A stretch of DNA of 64,000 nt from IMG/VR virus record IMGVR_UViG_3300030104_006454, positions 1 to 64,000 of that record; one strand, 5' to 3'. Below are positions 56,946 through 64,000 of the stretch, in pieces. The notes under the pieces are model-generated. The model was not told the DNA's origin and ran no database searches. It saw nothing but the letters and a program-made list of their open reading frames with translations. The DNA comes from an uncultured virus (IMG/VR IMGVR_UViG_3300030104_006454) (taxonomy: Duplodnaviria; Heunggongvirae; Uroviricota; Caudoviricetes; Crassvirales). The position numbers and the translations under genes were made by a program. How positions within the stretch are numbered: the first letter of the stretch is position 1; the number at the start of each line of letters is the position of its first letter.

Positions 56946-57206
56946 TTAGGCATCAATTAATACCACATCGCCTGAGCGAATAACGTGGTATAATGTTTCT
57001 TTGTACTGAACTCCGTGTCCAGCATGTTTATCATAATAAACAACATCTTTGTCGCTTATTCCTTCTACAAGGTTACCAGTTGATATTACGTTAGCCTTTA
57101 TATACCTATTGTCCGCATCAACGTCTTCAGTTAATATAAGTCCACCAACTTTCTTTGGCCCTTGTTTTATTTTTTGTACTATTATATAATTATTGACTGC
57201 TTGCAT
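56946..57206 (-). CDS. groES: co-chaperonin GroES
   Basis: KKVGGLILT mobile loop, VISTG and DVVYYDKHAG; overlaps the groEL end. Confidence 0.85.
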   Translation of the reverse strand: MQAVNNYIIVQKIKQGPKKVGGLILTEDVDADNRYIKANVISTGNLVEGISDKDVVYYDKHAGHGVQYKETLYHVIRSGDVVLIDA

Positions 57207-58758
57207 CGCCTCTCATGTTTGAAATTATACAATCAGCGGATATAATAGTAGTTACAACACTTACCGCATTTTTAAGTGCTGACTTAGTAACAAGTACTGG
57301 ATCTATAATACCGTGTTTAATCATTTCATATGTATTTCCATTTGTTACATCTATTCCCTTACCGTTTGTAGGTTCTACCGCTTCAATTATACCAGCATTA
57401 TCTAATATAGTTTGGTAAGGTGCTTTTATAGCATTAAGTAGTATTTCTTCACCCCATCCATTTGGCTTTATTTCTTGAGCAGCATTTAACAGTGCAATAC
57501 CACCGCCTGGCACTATGCCTTCTTTTAAAGCAGCTTTAGTAGCATATATTGCATCTTCAACTCTGTCTTTCTTTTCTTTAAGCTCTACCTTAGACGCTGC
57601 ACCTACACGCACCATACCTACTTTACCTGACAACATTGCAAGACGATCTTGTATTTTTTTCTTTAAAAACGGGTTTTTTTCGTTTTTTATAGCTTTTTTA
57701 ACATTTTCTATGCGTTCTGTAAGATCTTCGCTAATGTCTATAGTAGTAATTACAGTATTTTTGTCATTTGTAACAGCTTTATCAGCTTTTCCAAGGCAAT
57801 CAACAGTAATTAAGTCCATATCATCACCTAATTCTTCATTTATTACCGTAGCTCCGGTTAAAAATGCTAAATCTTGAACTGTATCTTGCTTAGTTGGGCC
57901 AAAACCTGGTAGATCTACAATGTTTACCTTAATATTACCCTTAACTTTGTTCATCATAAGGGCTGATTTTAGTTGAGTATCAACATGTGCAACAATAAGT
58001 AACTCTTTTTTGTTCTTTATAACATGTTCTAGTATCGGTTGTATTTTACGTATGTTAGGTATTTCACTACCTACAATCAAAACTAGCGGTTCTTCAAGTA
58101 CACACTCGTGTTTATCAGTATCTGTAACAAAATGTGGTGATGTTAAACCACAGTCAAACTGCACACCGTCAACAATATCAACGTAAGTTTCTTCAGTTCC
58201 AGAACCTTCCATGAAAACTACACCATCTTTACCTACTTTATTGTATGCATCAGCAATAATCATGCCTAAAGTTCGATCATTATTGCAGCTTATACTGCTA
58301 ATGTCCTCAAGCATGCTGCCTTCAACGTCTATAGCTATATTTGTAAGGTATGTATTTACTTTTTCAAGTGCTGAGCTTATACCTTGTTTAATAAATCTAG
58401 TAGAAAGTTCTGCATACTGCTCTTTTTGTACTTCTTTTATCAGTGCTTCAGCAAGGACAGTAGCTGTAGTAGTACCGTCACCTGCTTCTTTCACTGTGTT
58501 TTTAGCAGCTTCTTTAATAAGTGTAGCGCCGAGGTTTTCAACCGGGTCATATAAGACTACGGATTCTGCTACCGTTACACCATCTTTTGTTATGACCGGG
58601 TTGCCTCTAGCATCTTCGTATATTACACACTTACCAGATGCTCCTAGAGTAGACTTCACTGCTTTTGCTAATTTGTCTACACCCGTAATTATTTTACTTT
58701 TAGCTTTTTCACCAAAGTTTAGCTCTTTGATAAGTTCGCTGGGTTGGTTATATTCCAT
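57190..58758 (-). CDS. groEL: chaperonin GroEL (phage-encoded, no GGM tail)
   Basis: STLGASG, ITKDGVTVA, AGDGTTTATVLA, GIVPGGG and GIIDPVLVT. Confidence 0.95.
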   Translation of the reverse strand: MEYNQPSELIKELNFGEKAKSKIITGVDKLAKAVKSTLGASGKCVIYEDARGNPVITKDGVTVAESVVLYDPVENLGATLIKEAAKNTVKEAGDGTTTATVLAEALIKEVQKEQYAELSTRFIKQGISSALEKVNTYLTNIAIDVEGSMLEDISSISCNNDRTLGMIIADAYNKVGKDGVVFMEGSGTEETYVDIVDGVQFDCGLTSPHFVTDTDKHECVLEEPLVLIVGSEIPNIRKIQPILEHVIKNKKELLIVAHVDTQLKSALMMNKVKGNIKVNIVDLPGFGPTKQDTVQDLAFLTGATVINEELGDDMDLITVDCLGKADKAVTNDKNTVITTIDISEDLTERIENVKKAIKNEKNPFLKKKIQDRLAMLSGKVGMVRVGAASKVELKEKKDRVEDAIYATKAALKEGIVPGGGIALLNAAQEIKPNGWGEEILLNAIKAPYQTILDNAGIIEAVEPTNGKGIDVTNGNTYEMIKHGIIDPVLVTKSALKNAVSVVTTIISADCIISNMRGDASSQ

Positions 58759-60811: not shown

Positions 60812-60845
60812 TACAAACTAAATACGACTACATATGGATAATATA
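60812..60845 (+). promoter_or_regulatory. bipartite motif copy (putative early promoter)
   Basis: TACAAACTAAATACGA-ctacatat-GGATAATATA. Confidence 0.7.
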
Positions 60846-60938
60846 ATTGTAAAAAGAAATTAATAAAATGAATTACACTAACACACTTCGCGCAATACAT
60901 ACACACTAAAAATAATAACTAAATAATAATATTACTTT

Positions 60939-60972
60939 TACAATGTAAATACGAGACAATGTGGATAATATA
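60939..60972 (+). promoter_or_regulatory. bipartite motif copy (putative early promoter)
   Basis: TACAATGTAAATACGA-gacaatgt-GGATAATATA. Confidence 0.7.
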
Positions 60973-61009
60973 AATACAAAAACAAAGTTAAACTAAATAA
61001 ATAAAAATT

Positions 61010-61231
61010 ATGAAATTAAATTCTAAAAGATTTGTAATCAGAAAATCACTAATCGGTAAAAATGCAGTAATAACAGTAAACTTCACAAATGGCAAAACTG
61101 CCACTTATAATCACGACAAAGTGTTTGAAGTAATGAAAGATAAACTAGAACAAATGCCATGTTTTATCAAGTACAAAAGCTATACTGCTTCTAACAATGT
61201 GCCACTCGTTGCAAGAGAAATCTGCGAGTAG
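61010..61231 (+). CDS. early hypothetical protein
   Basis: 73-aa ORF downstream of a motif copy, with an A-rich leader. Confidence 0.7.
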   Translation: MKLNSKRFVIRKSLIGKNAVITVNFTNGKTATYNHDKVFEVMKDKLEQMPCFIKYKSYTASNNVPLVAREICE

Positions 61232-61244
61232 TAATACAAAGTCG

Positions 61245-61334
61245 AGTTAGTTCCACTTGTTCCCTCGTATAATCAAATATGAATGAGTAATGTAGTCATG
61301 GTGCCGAGGTGGGTTCGATTCCCACGCTATAACT
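61245..61334 (+). ncRNA. tRNA-like element (perfect T-arm, no clear D or anticodon arm)
   Basis: GTGGG-TTCGATT-CCCAC at 61309-61325, with possible acceptor-like pairing TGTAGT/GCTATA. Confidence 0.35.
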
Positions 61335-61346
61335 AAAATAATTAAT

Positions 61347-61538
61347 ATGAATAAAGTAAAACAACATATAAATAACGCAAAGCGTTTTAGACAAGAAAAC
61401 TATAAACCACTAATTGAGTACATCAATTGGAGTGAAATCACTAAAGATTATAACTTAAAAACAGGCGATTTAAACTACACTGATTACAACAAATTAGAAT
61501 TAATATTAGATAATTTTGTTAAAAGTAATACAAAATAA
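61347..61538 (+). CDS. early hypothetical protein
   Basis: 63-aa ORF; its stop lies inside the next motif copy. Confidence 0.6.
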   Translation: MNKVKQHINNAKRFRQENYKPLIEYINWSEITKDYNLKTGDLNYTDYNKLELILDNFVKSNTK

Positions 61539-61562
61539 ACACGAACACTAATGGATAATATA
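61529..61562 (+). promoter_or_regulatory. bipartite motif copy (putative early promoter)
   Basis: TACAAAATAAACACGA-acactaat-GGATAATATA. Confidence 0.65.
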
Positions 61563-61575
61563 ATAAATTAAACAA

Positions 61576-61728
61576 ATGATATACGAGCACGAAATAACTT
61601 TTAACGATCACTCAATACAATACTTAACTTCAACAACTAATTATCTAAATGACGAAGATAAAGAGTTTCTCGAAGCGCTCGATGTCGACTTGTCAACAAT
61701 TAAATTAATAAATACTTATAAATTATGA
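61576..61728 (+). CDS. 50-aa early hypothetical protein (MIYEHEITFNDHSIQY...)
   Basis: Translated by hand; starts 14 nt after a motif copy. Confidence 0.55.
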   Translation: MIYEHEITFNDHSIQYLTSTTNYLNDEDKEFLEALDVDLSTIKLINTYKL

Positions 61729-61850
61729 TAATAAGAAAAGTAGCAGGATTATGGATAGTGCAACGTCAGCACTCACAGCAAATAGTATTTTCACACAAAA
61801 GCAGAATGACGTGTTATGAGTGGATATTTAAATCAGTACACTATGCATAA
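61725..61850 (+). CDS. 41-aa early hypothetical protein (MIIRKVAGLWIVQRQH...)
   Basis: Translated by hand; ATGA-coupled to the upstream ORF. Confidence 0.5.
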   Translation: MIIRKVAGLWIVQRQHSQQIVFSHKSRMTCYEWIFKSVHYA

Positions 61851-61935
61851 AGTAGCAAAAATACTACTAGATATAGTAGCAATAGGATGGTTAGTATTTG
61901 TAATTGTAGCAATAGTAACAATAATTACAAACTAA
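61843..61935 (+). CDS. 30-aa single-TM early peptide (MHKVAKILLDIVAIGWLVFVIVAIVTIITN)
   Basis: Translated by hand; overlapping start, and its stop lies inside a motif copy. Confidence 0.5.
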   Translation: MHKVAKILLDIVAIGWLVFVIVAIVTIITN

Positions 61936-61959
61936 ATACGAATTAAGTCGGATAATATA
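61926..61959 (+). promoter_or_regulatory. bipartite motif copy (putative early promoter)
   Basis: TACAAACTAAATACGA-attaagtc-GGATAATATA. Confidence 0.7.
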
Positions 61960-61966
61960 TATAAAT

Positions 61967-62158
61967 ATGAATATGAAAACAAACATAAACACTTTAAACT
62001 ACAACGAAAAAACTAAAACACTAATTTTAAACAAAATAAAATACAAAGGCTATGAAATTTGCGAACTACCTGCAAACTTTGGTTGTATTGAATTTAACGA
62101 AAAACCAGGAATTAGTGAATGGATTAACTACAAAGGTCTAACATTTATACAAGAATAA
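61967..62158 (+). CDS. early hypothetical protein
   Basis: 63-aa ORF directly after a motif copy. Confidence 0.65.
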   Translation: MNMKTNINTLNYNEKTKTLILNKIKYKGYEICELPANFGCIEFNEKPGISEWINYKGLTFIQE

Positions 62159-62160
62159 TT

Positions 62161-62421
62161 ATGAAAAAAAACAAGTATAAACTAACAATTACAGAAGCAC
62201 ACAGTGATCTACTCAAAGTAGAAATGACAGACAAGTATTGTAACTACTGCTGTGTATACGAACCAAGTATTGAAGACGCACTAGCGTATGCAGGTTACTG
62301 GTTTGCTGAAACTGAAGCAAGACGCGAGTCAAATCAAACTCACGCAAAAGCAGTAATGGAAATGAATAAACTAGATAAAGAAGCTGGTATACTAACTGGC
62401 AACTATGATGGATTAGATTAA
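62161..62421 (+). CDS. early hypothetical protein
   Basis: 86-aa ORF, tightly packed with its neighbours. Confidence 0.65.
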   Translation: MKKNKYKLTITEAHSDLLKVEMTDKYCNYCCVYEPSIEDALAYAGYWFAETEARRESNQTHAKAVMEMNKLDKEAGILTGNYDGLD

Positions 62422-62431
62422 AATAATAAAT

Positions 62432-63007
62432 ATGAAAGAAAATAATAAATGGAAGTATCAAGGCGATAGCAGGTACGAGAAAATATATGAGAAAATGCAA
62501 CTACTTGGTATACAAGACGTTACCACAGATAGGCAACACAAGAATGGTACAATAGTTTGGCGATTACCAATCAAAAATAATTGGCCAAGACAAAACGCTA
62601 GTTTCATTGAAGTAGCTAGTATGAAAACAGGTTATGTACGTAATCAGAATAGTGGTTATAGTAACTATCAACTCAATAAAAGATGTGAAAACGAGCCGGA
62701 GTATTTTAAACTACCTAATGGTGATTATAGAAAATTTACAACTCGTGGTTGTGTACTAATACCAATAGAAATTGATAGATTAGAGTATTTAATAAAGTAT
62801 TGTGTTAAAAACTATTACATTAAAAATGCTAATCAAGTGCCAAATGGCGAGTTCTATCCAAAGTGGATGTATGATAATGCTAAAGAAAATGCAGACTTTC
62901 ATGAGAAAAGATCTGATGAGTACATGAATAAGTTTGCTAATGTAGCACCTGATGGTACAAAAGAAGTAACATTAATAATAGATGGCCATAAATATAAAGT
63001 AATATGA
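62432..63007 (+). CDS. early hypothetical protein
   Basis: 191-aa ORF. Confidence 0.7.
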   Translation: MKENNKWKYQGDSRYEKIYEKMQLLGIQDVTTDRQHKNGTIVWRLPIKNNWPRQNASFIEVASMKTGYVRNQNSGYSNYQLNKRCENEPEYFKLPNGDYRKFTTRGCVLIPIEIDRLEYLIKYCVKNYYIKNANQVPNGEFYPKWMYDNAKENADFHEKRSDEYMNKFANVAPDGTKEVTLIIDGHKYKVI

Positions 63008-63144
63008 GTAAGAAAAGAAAACTAAACAGCAAGAATCCAAAGTATATGGACAAAAGCCTAGTAACCGAAAAGAAGGTTATAAGAAAAGAATTAATTAATA
63101 ATGTAAAAGGCGTTAAAATAAACGCAGTATGGTATGAAAAATAA
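63004..63144 (+). CDS. 46-aa basic early protein (MSKKRKLNSKNPKYMDK...)
   Basis: Translated by hand; ATGA-coupled to the upstream ORF. Confidence 0.55.
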   Translation: MSKKRKLNSKNPKYMDKSLVTEKKVIRKELINNVKGVKINAVWYEK

Positions 63145-63340
63145 TAGACTAAAAACAATGAACTGTATAACAGTGTTAGATTTTGAAGTGGGAAAAGTGT
63201 TTCAATACAATATAGGTAAAGATCACTTATGCTGGAACCCTGAATATGAGAGATGTGAGCAATTCTTAACAGGTGAAGGACACAATTTAAGTAACATAAA
63301 CTGGATGGTACATAGTAATGAGGAAATAATTACAAATTAA
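63134..63340 (+). CDS. early hypothetical protein
   Basis: 68-aa ORF; its stop lies inside a motif copy. Confidence 0.6.
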   Translation: MKNNRLKTMNCITVLDFEVGKVFQYNIGKDHLCWNPEYERCEQFLTGEGHNLSNINWMVHSNEEIITN

Positions 63341-63364
63341 ATACGATTGCTATTGGATAATATA
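63331..63364 (+). promoter_or_regulatory. bipartite motif copy (putative early promoter)
   Basis: TACAAATTAAATACGA-ttgctatt-GGATAATATA. Confidence 0.7.
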
Positions 63365-63379
63365 TACAAATAACGATAT

Positions 63380-63589
63380 ATGATTTGTAAATGTAAAAAT
63401 ATAATACCACCTGGCAGAGTTAAACTTGGCTTTAGTACGTGTGTAAACTGTTCAACAGTAGAAGCATATGGTTGCGCACCACTAATAAACCACAAAACCG
63501 GCAATTCTATTCAGATAATGTCAAGCAGTGACGCTGCTCGTATTGCCAAGTTAACTCGACGCAGGGGTTATGGAACAATGTTGGCTTAA
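63380..63589 (+). CDS. DksA/TraR-like C4 zinc-finger protein
   Basis: CKCKNIIPPGRVKLGFSTCVNC fits the C..C..IP..R......C..C pattern. Confidence 0.6.
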   Translation: MICKCKNIIPPGRVKLGFSTCVNCSTVEAYGCAPLINHKTGNSIQIMSSSDAARIAKLTRRRGYGTMLA

Positions 63590-63855
63590 CTTTGTTTTCA
63601 AAACGTGTGGAAGAACAAAGATCAGGTTAATTCTTGAGCCACACGGACATGTAGAGGCTTGGGTGGTTGCGCGTAAGGCGAGTAGAGACAGTATCTAAGA
63701 ACAGTTACAGCTTGAAATAATAGTGTACGACTGAGACGACAGTATCTCATCTTACTTACATGGCAGAACGGCAGGATAAAGCAAAATGTTCGTAAGTCTG
63801 TAAGTTCTTTATGAGTACGCAGAACAAGAACCACGCCTGCCCTCCCTCTTCATGT
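63590..63855 (+). ncRNA. putative structured non-coding RNA
   Basis: GC-richer ORF-free interval with several complementary pairs (see findings). Confidence 0.5.
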
Positions 63856-63889
63856 TACAAACTAAATACGATAATAGAAGGATAATATA
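63856..63889 (+). promoter_or_regulatory. bipartite motif copy (putative early promoter)
   Basis: TACAAACTAAATACGA-taatagaa-GGATAATATA. Confidence 0.7.
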
Positions 63890-63904
63890 ATAAAATTAAA
63901 TCAA

Positions 63905-64000
63905 ATGAAATTAACAAGTAAAAAAGTAAAACAATATATGGCGTGGAGAACTGATGAAGAGCTCACGCATTGCCCTAATGCTATTGCTGCGGCTTGCAAT
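63905..64000 (+). CDS. early hypothetical protein, 3'-truncated by the window edge
   Basis: ATG 16 nt after a motif copy; frame open to the window end (MKLTSKKVKQYMAWRTDEELTHCPN...). Confidence 0.55.
   Translation, partial: MKLTSKKVKQYMAWRTDEELTHCPNAIAAACN

What the first reader, a model, noticed from the sequence alone, without database searches (positions are those of the whole stretch)
63590..63855. Structured ~265-nt non-coding region with possible pseudoknots
Seen in the 5' module: CTTTGTT (63590-96) pairs with AACAAAG (63614-20), its loop CGTGTGG (63604-10) pairs with CCACACG (63639-45), and a TCAGG/CTTGA hairpin lies between, giving an H-type-like pseudoknot. Seen in the 3' module: ACATGTAGAGG (63647-57) pairs with CCTCTTCATGT (63845-55), GTGGTT (63663-68) with AACCAC (63829-34), and GGCAGG (63770-75) with CCTGCC (63836-41). 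Two related hairpins share GACAGTATCT, and CTTAC/GTAAG pairs are also present. The region is GC-richer than its flanks and is bounded exactly by a stop codon and a promoter motif. I could not match it to a known family. Inference: a novel phage ncRNA (6S-like decoy, ribozyme or protein sponge).
Basis: partly seen in the sequence, partly recalled or inferred. Interest (0 to 1): 0.7.

Follow-up and report, generated by a model that had tools for sequence, protein, structure and literature searches.

The report
Mix-and-match phage RNA module library
This stretch is one copy of an uncatalogued, predicted non-coding RNA of uncultured phages (likely infecting flavobacteria) in which a fixed knotted frame holds small folded modules that are swapped freely between relatives, likely as decoys that bind host molecules.

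Summary
The 3' part (63648-63854) is a conserved core: stem P1 closes a two-helix pseudoknot (P2, P3) with two cargo slots. I found 131 distinct copies in viral and metagenome contigs, including 29 of 73 relatives fetched by a neighbouring protein. P1 and P3 covary; P2 never varies. The slots hold 0-139 and 4-106 bases drawn from about 56 recurring sequence modules, 21 seen in both slots; in the two tested, a fixed loop sits between stems that covary. Near-identical cargo in one slot usually goes with unrelated cargo in the other (81 of 91, 106 of 134 pairs). The window carries five modules. Folding energy is no better than shuffled. No Rfam family, no fixed partner gene, no rRNA or self-antisense match. 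Two relatives carry a tmRNA cut down to its tRNA-like part, a form with published decoy precedent. Best reading: a recombining library of trans-acting decoy/aptamer RNAs in the putative early region; targets, expression and activity are not shown.

The parts
63380..63589 (+). 69-aa ORF with four Cys; neighbour used as an RNA-independent anchor, not a fixed partner of the RNA
   Evidence: no Pfam or PHROG hit; nearest named Atlas cluster zf-dskA_traR at 0.87, a lead only; core present in 29 of 73 loci that have this gene
63587..63599 (+).
   Evidence: same or similar leader runs straight into P1 in L012, L315, L329, L417, L420
63604..63645 (+). Module B: hairpin with a fixed 11-nt purine-rich internal loop opposite a single bulged G; flanking stems and inner cargo vary
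   Evidence: 20 copies; outer 3 bp 83% paired against 48% permuted, 0 of 2000; local fold z -2.8; other cargo inside it in L397 and in RNA-library contigs
63648..63657 (+). P1 5' strand (carrier stem), pairs with 63845-63854
   Evidence: 67 distinct strand pairs: own duplex -10.0 against -6.8 kcal/mol permuted, 0 of 2000; 6 of 7 pairs change on both sides
63663..63667 (+). P2 5' strand, pairs with 63830-63834; invariant
   Evidence: 40 of 40 unchanged; both strands present in all 29 protein-anchored copies; invariance gives no covariation support
63668..63766 (+). Cargo slot X (99 nt here; 0-139 nt in relatives): nested modules A (63669-83 with 63749-66), C1 (63685-96 with 63733-48) and C2 (63697-63736)
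   Evidence: A 30 copies, inner 3 bp 97% paired against 42% permuted; C1 2 copies, C2 5 copies; fold of this part alone is not better than shuffled, z +1.1
63767..63782 (+). Core middle: short linker, P3 5' strand (63770-75) and a near-invariant unpaired purine-rich segment (63776-82)
   Evidence: P3 pair 1 and pair 3 covary; unpaired segment identical in 132 of 134 hits, partly by construction of the search
63783..63829 (+). Cargo slot Y (47 nt here; 4-106 nt in relatives) holding module D (63787-63826)
   Evidence: D 5 copies with variable inner loop
63830..63854 (+). Core 3' strand: P2 3' strand (63830-34), one-base link, P3 3' strand (63836-41), P1 3' strand (63845-54)
63856..63890 (+). 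Repeated promoter-like DNA motif of the small-ORF region, between the RNA and the next ORF (ATG at 63905)
   Evidence: 8 copies in the genome, all on +, 7 between 60812 and 64964; promoter function is inferred

Best explanation
The stretch is a predicted trans-acting non-coding RNA built as carrier plus cargo: a closing stem and a conserved pseudoknot core display interchangeable fixed-loop modules that likely act as decoys or aptamers for host proteins or RNA-handling machinery early in infection. Shown by comparison: the core helices, the two slots, the module library and its reassortment. Inferred: that it is transcribed from the + strand with the small-ORF region, that the closing stem (followed by a U run in many copies) or a tRNA-like end protects it, that each fixed loop is a binding surface, and that recombination through the short shared stems reshuffles the set under host counter-selection. 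The core itself behaves as one more module with two arms, since the same closing stem also carries other modules without it.
For: 131 distinct cores after three drops; covariation in P1 and P3 with 15 G-U cells favouring + strand RNA; cargo lengths fall in all three frames, so not coding; 56 merged modules, 36 in three or more inserts, 21 in both slots; fixed loops with freely covarying flanks for modules A and B, the pattern expected of binding sites; reassortment in 81 of 91 and 106 of 134 pairs, L397 shares X but not Y with the window; optional and gene-independent: 22 of 47 full-length loci have it, no early ORF co-occurs strictly, next ORF falls in 18 families among 99; module B also rides inside tRNA-half carriers (L007, L049); L047 and L050 carry 71- and 84-nt tmRNA ends above the Rfam cut-off (49 against 47 bits) with the mRNA part gone and G3-U70 kept, a form reported for phage DS6A, a similar molecule inhibiting tmRNA perhaps by titrating SmpB (PMC4131195, passage).
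Against: No target is identified for any module of the window; none matches Rfam or shares more words with E. coli or Persicobacter rRNA than reversed controls (87 against 59 and 78; 106 against 74 and 110). Transcription of this RNA is not shown: contigs in RNA libraries match the upstream gene and the 5' start of the element at about 98% but contigs cannot show strand, ends or level. Folding energy is not above shuffles and a strand test by energy is weak (75 of 130). P2 and three P3 pairs never vary, and pattern searches fixed them in part of the set; relatedness inflates covariation counts. The tmRNA-like decoy is a different unit in 2 relatives, not part of the window. Host chromosomes could not be searched with the model.
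Confidence: 0.5

Rival explanations
1. The modules are small-molecule aptamers that would soak up nucleotide signals or metabolites (an RNA counterpart of phage sponge proteins), with the core as one such aptamer.
For: About 20 invariant positions in a compact pseudoknot with two dispensable arms and purine-rich asymmetric loops between variable stems resemble riboswitch and selected aptamers (recalled).
Against: No Rfam riboswitch match even at loose thresholds; dozens of unrelated loops would need dozens of ligands; module B shares only its first five loop bases and the bulged G with the selected ATP aptamer (recalled comparison) and keeps fixed closing pairs.
Confidence: 0.15
2. The core is a new self-cleaving or processing ribozyme, or a nuclease-blocking knot, that would cut or stabilise units of a long non-coding transcript; the cargo is separate.
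For: Compact invariant pseudoknot that survives loss of both arms (L085); a T-arm motif follows within 400 nt in 51 of 131 copies; sits directly before tRNA-Asp or tRNA-half units in several loci.
Against: No match to Rfam ribozymes; no hammerhead core word in the element; the core lies inside a closed stem, and many carriers with cargo lack it.
Confidence: 0.12
3. It is a selfish or neutral repeat acting at DNA level (miniature transposon-like element or recombination hot spot); hairpins reflect palindromic DNA.
For: Patchy presence (29 of 73) and rapid reshuffling; a similar reading was reached for a giant-virus repeat by another agent (e1-5509512, unchecked).
Against: One copy per genome here, always in gene orientation in the 29 anchored loci; G-U pairs and a pseudoknot; unpaired loops are more conserved than stems; module B also occurs inside tRNA-shaped carriers.
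Confidence: 0.1
4. It is a cis-acting leader or riboswitch/attenuator that would control the next gene.
For: P1 is followed by four or more T in 76 of 131 copies; 58 of 99 copies precede the same ORF family; in L080, L085, L112 it lies shortly before a start codon.
Against: A promoter-like motif lies between RNA and ORF in the window and in 46 of 131 copies within 60 nt; relatives without the RNA have the same next gene behind the same motif; 18 downstream families; cargo changes without regard to the gene.
Confidence: 0.08
5. It is a scaffold for a phage-encoded small protein (ribonucleoprotein or toxin-antitoxin-like pair).
For: Lies within 50 nt of a basic 46-aa ORF in 13 of 18 loci that have both.
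Against: That ORF is absent in 9 of 22 loci with the core and present in 8 of 25 without (Fisher p 0.08); no ORF tested co-occurs strictly.
Confidence: 0.05

Closest known systems
tRNA-like-domain-only tmRNA of mycobacteriophage DS6A (PMC4131195, PMC11915505; passages read)
   Same: A phage RNA cut down to a host-protein-binding part; the same form is present in two relatives of this phage (L047, L050), in the same small-ORF region.
   Different: The window's element has no T arm or acceptor end and no tmRNA match; DS6A RNA is a single fixed unit, not a reshuffled module set.
Phage RNA decoys: pseudo-ToxI of phage TE and RNA anti-CRISPRs (Racrs) (recalled, not read)
   Same: Works like them in the preferred reading: phage non-coding RNA that would titrate a host defence protein.
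   Different: Those copy one host RNA (antitoxin or CRISPR repeat), often in tandem; here no Rfam match to such RNAs, no tandem repeat, and dozens of unrelated modules nest in shared carriers.
Abundant early intergenic ncRNAs of Cellulophaga crAss-like phage phi14:2 (bioRxiv 10.1101/2020.03.07.982082; passages read)
   Same: Flavobacterial phage, early region, stable non-coding transcripts of unknown function.
   Different: No sequence match in the phage collection; no DFDxD polymerase motif in the four large ORFs tested here.
RNase P RNA catalytic domain (topology recalled)
   Same: Order of strands is alike: closing stem, second stem, optional hairpin, pseudoknot strand, optional domain, second stem partner, pseudoknot partner.
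   Different: Conserved RNase P sequence regions are absent, link before the pseudoknot partner is one base, no Rfam RNase P hit on the core.
GOLLD, ROOL and other large phage-associated RNAs near tRNAs (search listing only)
   Same: Highly structured phage-linked ncRNA beside tRNA genes, function open.
   Different: Those are single large conserved folds in Rfam; this is a 60-nt core with exchangeable cargo and no Rfam hit.

Membership tests
Any Rfam 15 family | Score at or above the family's gathering threshold | tested here: not met
   0 in the window; only sub-threshold snoRNA-type noise at E<=10; only tRNA in 20 related loci at gathering and nothing on cores in 20 loci at E<=5
6S RNA | Long rod with a central bubble, about 180 nt, Rfam match | tested here: not met
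   Comparative structure is a branched pseudoknot with length from about 60 to 290 nt; no Rfam hit
Known self-cleaving ribozymes (hammerhead, twister, pistol, hatchet, HDV-like) | Catalytic consensus and secondary structure | tested here: not met
   No Rfam hit; hammerhead core word absent
Self-cleaving ribozyme (new class) | Site-specific cleavage in vitro | not testable with these tools
   Needs a bench assay
tmRNA or tRNA-like-domain-only decoy | Acceptor stem with G3-U70 and T arm | tested here: not met
   Absent from the window's element; met in relatives L047 and L050
RNase P RNA | Conserved regions around the P4 pseudoknot | tested here: not met
   No Rfam match; invariant core bases differ (RNase P consensus recalled)
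Riboswitch or cis leader | Fixed position in the 5' leader of functionally related genes | tested here: inconclusive
   18 downstream families among 99, one with 58; promoter-like motif often intervenes
rRNA-mimic decoy | Modules share sequence with rRNA beyond chance | tested here: not met
   Exact words of 9 or more bases not above reversed controls for E. coli and Persicobacter operons; flavobacterial rRNA and 3D mimicry not tested
Phage decoy RNAs (pseudo-ToxI, Racr) | Copy of a host antitoxin RNA or CRISPR repeat that binds the cognate protein | tested here: inconclusive
   No Rfam hit to such RNAs; host chromosomes not searchable with the model; binding untestable here
Antisense sRNA against own genes | Extended complementarity to a phage mRNA | tested here: not met
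   Longest match elsewhere in the genome is 11 nt on either strand

The most novel reading that the evidence does not exclude
These phages keep a natural, recombining RNA aptamer library: dozens of binding modules snap into shared carriers (closing stem, pseudoknot core, tRNA halves), so each phage fields its own combination of RNA inhibitors or sponges against host defence and quality-control proteins or immune signal nucleotides - an RNA counterpart of anti-defence protein arrays.
Probability: 0.3. Interest if true: 0.92.

Novelty: categorically new. Interest (0 to 1): 0.74.

Why it matters
Known phage decoy RNAs are single copies of one host RNA. Here a group of environmental phages appears to carry a combinatorial kit: about 56 recurring modules that nest in one another and in several carriers. 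If they are binding modules, this is a new layer of phage counter-defence and a ready-made set of natural aptamers whose targets can be fished one by one; the 60-nt core is a small new pseudoknot fold suited to structure work and to use as a two-slot display scaffold. It also gives a testable handle on the open question of what abundant early non-coding RNAs of flavobacterial phages do.

Tried and rejected
Single-sequence folding: not informative. Rfam at two thresholds on window and relatives: nothing for the element. BLASTN in annotated phages and plasmids: no meaningful match. Exact short-core pattern in GTDB genomes: 0 (covers only Y up to 32 nt and the commonest P3). Model R1 on five cultured relatives and MW202828: 0 of 6, so no cultured carrier is known; on two rRNA operons: 0. 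rRNA mimicry by shared words: no excess. Fixed protein partner: none. Sigma-70 promoter and short terminator scan: 0. Pattern scan was mostly chance hits; 44 anchor hits were rejected for lacking the 5' strands, L492 was dropped as false, L367 and L405 as mis-parsed. Alignment A2 had two rows with wrong coordinates and was not used. RNA runs: all hold under 0.2 of the words; laid contigs leave most of the core uncovered, which shows nothing either way. GroEL scan of genomes gave no host handle. Literature searches with no paper on this family; the alignments of the 10,006-candidate viral RNA catalogue (PMC10690425) could not be read, so an entry there is not excluded.

Full report
Setting. The window is nearly the whole of a 65,946-base virus record. 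Terminase and portal find 87 records each in the annotated phage collection; 86 are phages of Flavobacterium, Cellulophaga, Tenacibaculum or Maribacter at under 60% identity and one is an uncultured phage, so a flavobacterial host is inferred, not shown. The finding lies in a run of small + strand ORFs punctuated by a repeated promoter-like motif (8 copies), which I read as the early region (inference).

Observation check. On the single sequence they are not above chance: folding z = -0.25, 7-base complements 3 against 2.5. Rfam gives nothing and ARAGORN nothing.

Relatives. The neighbouring 69-aa ORF fetched 73 viral loci without using the RNA. A covariance model built from 40 copies hits 29 of these 73 and neither of two rRNA operons. 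No match was found in GTDB genomes for a short exact form nor in six annotated phage relatives.

Anatomy. A closing stem P1 encloses P2 (63663-67 with 63830-34) and P3 (63770-75 with 63836-41), which cross. On 40 of the copies, 91% of cells pair against 83% shuffled and 36-50% for slid registers; 6 of 7 P1 pairs and 2 of 6 P3 pairs change on both sides; P2 and three P3 pairs never vary. Some rows have P1 one column out of register and count as misses. Over 67 distinct P1 strand pairs, own partners beat permuted ones in 2000 of 2000 trials. In 13 copies the second P3 pair is a mismatch, best read as a bulge. The patterns fixed P2's 3' strand and half of P3 in part of the set, but both P2 strands are also present in all 29 protein-anchored copies. 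Relatedness inflates these counts; no tree-aware test was run. Fifteen G-U cells, gene-sense orientation in all 29 anchored loci and a T run after P1 in 76 of 131 point to + strand RNA; an energy-based strand test is weak (75 of 130). Slot lengths fall in all three frames.

Cargo. Slot X holds 0-139 and slot Y 4-106 bases. Clustering of 189 distinct inserts gives 56 merged modules, 36 in three or more inserts, 21 in both slots, up to five per insert (automatic clustering, so the number is approximate). Of 91 pairs of cores with X at least 90% alike, 81 have unrelated Y; of 134 pairs with like Y, 106 have unrelated X. L397 has the window's X and P1, another Y, and other cargo inside module B. 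The window carries modules B (5' hairpin), A, C1, C2 and D, with 20, 30, 2, 5 and 5 copies found by motif. For B the outer three pairs are 83% paired against 48% permuted, and for A the inner three 97% against 42%, both 0 of 2000; B's inner two and A's outer five pairs have too few variants to test. Since the motifs defined the loops, loop conservation is partly by construction; the free covariation of the flanks is not. Module A also sits directly in a P1 stem without the core (L020, L028, L038, L066), and module B inside carriers shaped like half a tRNA (L007, L049; one search lists 50 T-arm carriers, true tRNAs included).

Its strand at 63590-96 is part of a leader that runs straight into P1 in L012, L315, L329, L417 and L420; three of these lack module B downstream, two have it 44 nt away in slot Y. 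It adjoins the loop in 1 of 20 copies. The leader's start fits the Bacteroidota -7 promoter consensus (recalled), which would put a start near 63600, but no -33 element is present, so this is a lead.

Expression. Twenty-four runs (19 studies; 23 on record as RNA) hold 9-15% of the words. In three of four laid runs, contigs 97-100% alike cover the 69-aa gene and the start of module B and then diverge. Contigs cannot show strand, ends or level, so transcription is not shown.

Mechanism. No early ORF co-occurs strictly with the core (22 of 47 full-length loci have it), the next ORF falls in 18 families, relatives without it keep the same next gene, and there is no antisense match to the own genome beyond 11 nt: this favours an optional trans-acting RNA. 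Fixed loops on free stems suggest binding surfaces (inference). Shared words with E. coli or Persicobacter rRNA do not exceed controls, so simple rRNA copying is not supported. The best hint comes from two relatives, L047 and L050, whose 71- and 84-nt RNAs pass the Rfam tmRNA cut-off with 326 model positions replaced by 23-36 bases and G3-U70 kept. PMC4131195 (passages) reports the same form in phage DS6A and says a similar molecule strongly inhibits tmRNA, perhaps by titrating SmpB; PMC11915505 (passages) repeats this. I therefore favour a decoy/aptamer library (0.5), then metabolite sponge, ribozyme or protective knot, DNA repeat, cis leader and phage-protein scaffold.

Known systems and novelty. 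The phi14:2 preprint (passages) describes two abundant early intergenic RNAs of unknown function; no sequence link was found. Pseudo-ToxI, Racrs, the ATP aptamer and the RNase P topology are recalled, not read. Searches found no paper on this family; PMC2864571 and PMC11662646 were seen as listings only. For PMC10690425 I saw passages, the supplement list and part 1 of one table; its alignments and PDFs could not be read, so one of its 8,495 DNA-virus candidates may overlap a module. Other agents of this scan noted modular phage RNAs in other genomes; these are unchecked leads, and no look-alike of this sequence was on record. Verdict: a real, uncatalogued RNA family with a combinatorial build; function inferred.

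Noticed in passing
window 61235-61345 (+): Second candidate ncRNA: hairpin module followed by a T arm and short acceptor-like stem; BLASTN matches in 30 of 73 related loci, no Rfam hit.
   Followed up: partly
L047:3822-3892, L050:2886-2969: tmRNA cut down to its tRNA-like domain, above the Rfam cut-off, G3-U70 kept; candidate SmpB decoy like that of phage DS6A.
   Followed up: partly
L016:4079-4330, L048:4250-4480, L068:4768-5000: A core subfamily with its own P1 and P3 variants sits directly before a tRNA-half carrier with variable cargo, suggesting processing of a multi-unit transcript.
   Followed up: partly
window 63787-63826: Module D can be drawn as a miniature pseudoknot with the same strand order as the core (by eye); invariant in 5 copies, so untested.
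   Followed up: no
window 63380-63589: 69-aa four-Cys protein with an Arg-rich end, widespread in these phages; nearest named cluster is the DksA/TraR zinc finger at 0.87, a lead only.
   Followed up: partly
window 60812-63890 and 1801: Repeated promoter-like motif with two fixed blocks and a variable spacer, 8 copies, all on +.
   Followed up: partly
L080:635-740, L085:676-748, L112:649-740: The core also occurs in phages with different flanking sequence; in L080 and L085 it follows a full Bacteroidota-type promoter (consensus recalled), and L085 is the minimal form.
   Followed up: partly
window 56946-58758 (-): Phage-encoded GroES and GroEL.
   Followed up: no
L008, L045, L048, L051, L068, L366: Relatives carry single tRNA genes (Asp, Arg, Ser by anticodon) next to the RNA clusters.
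   Followed up: no
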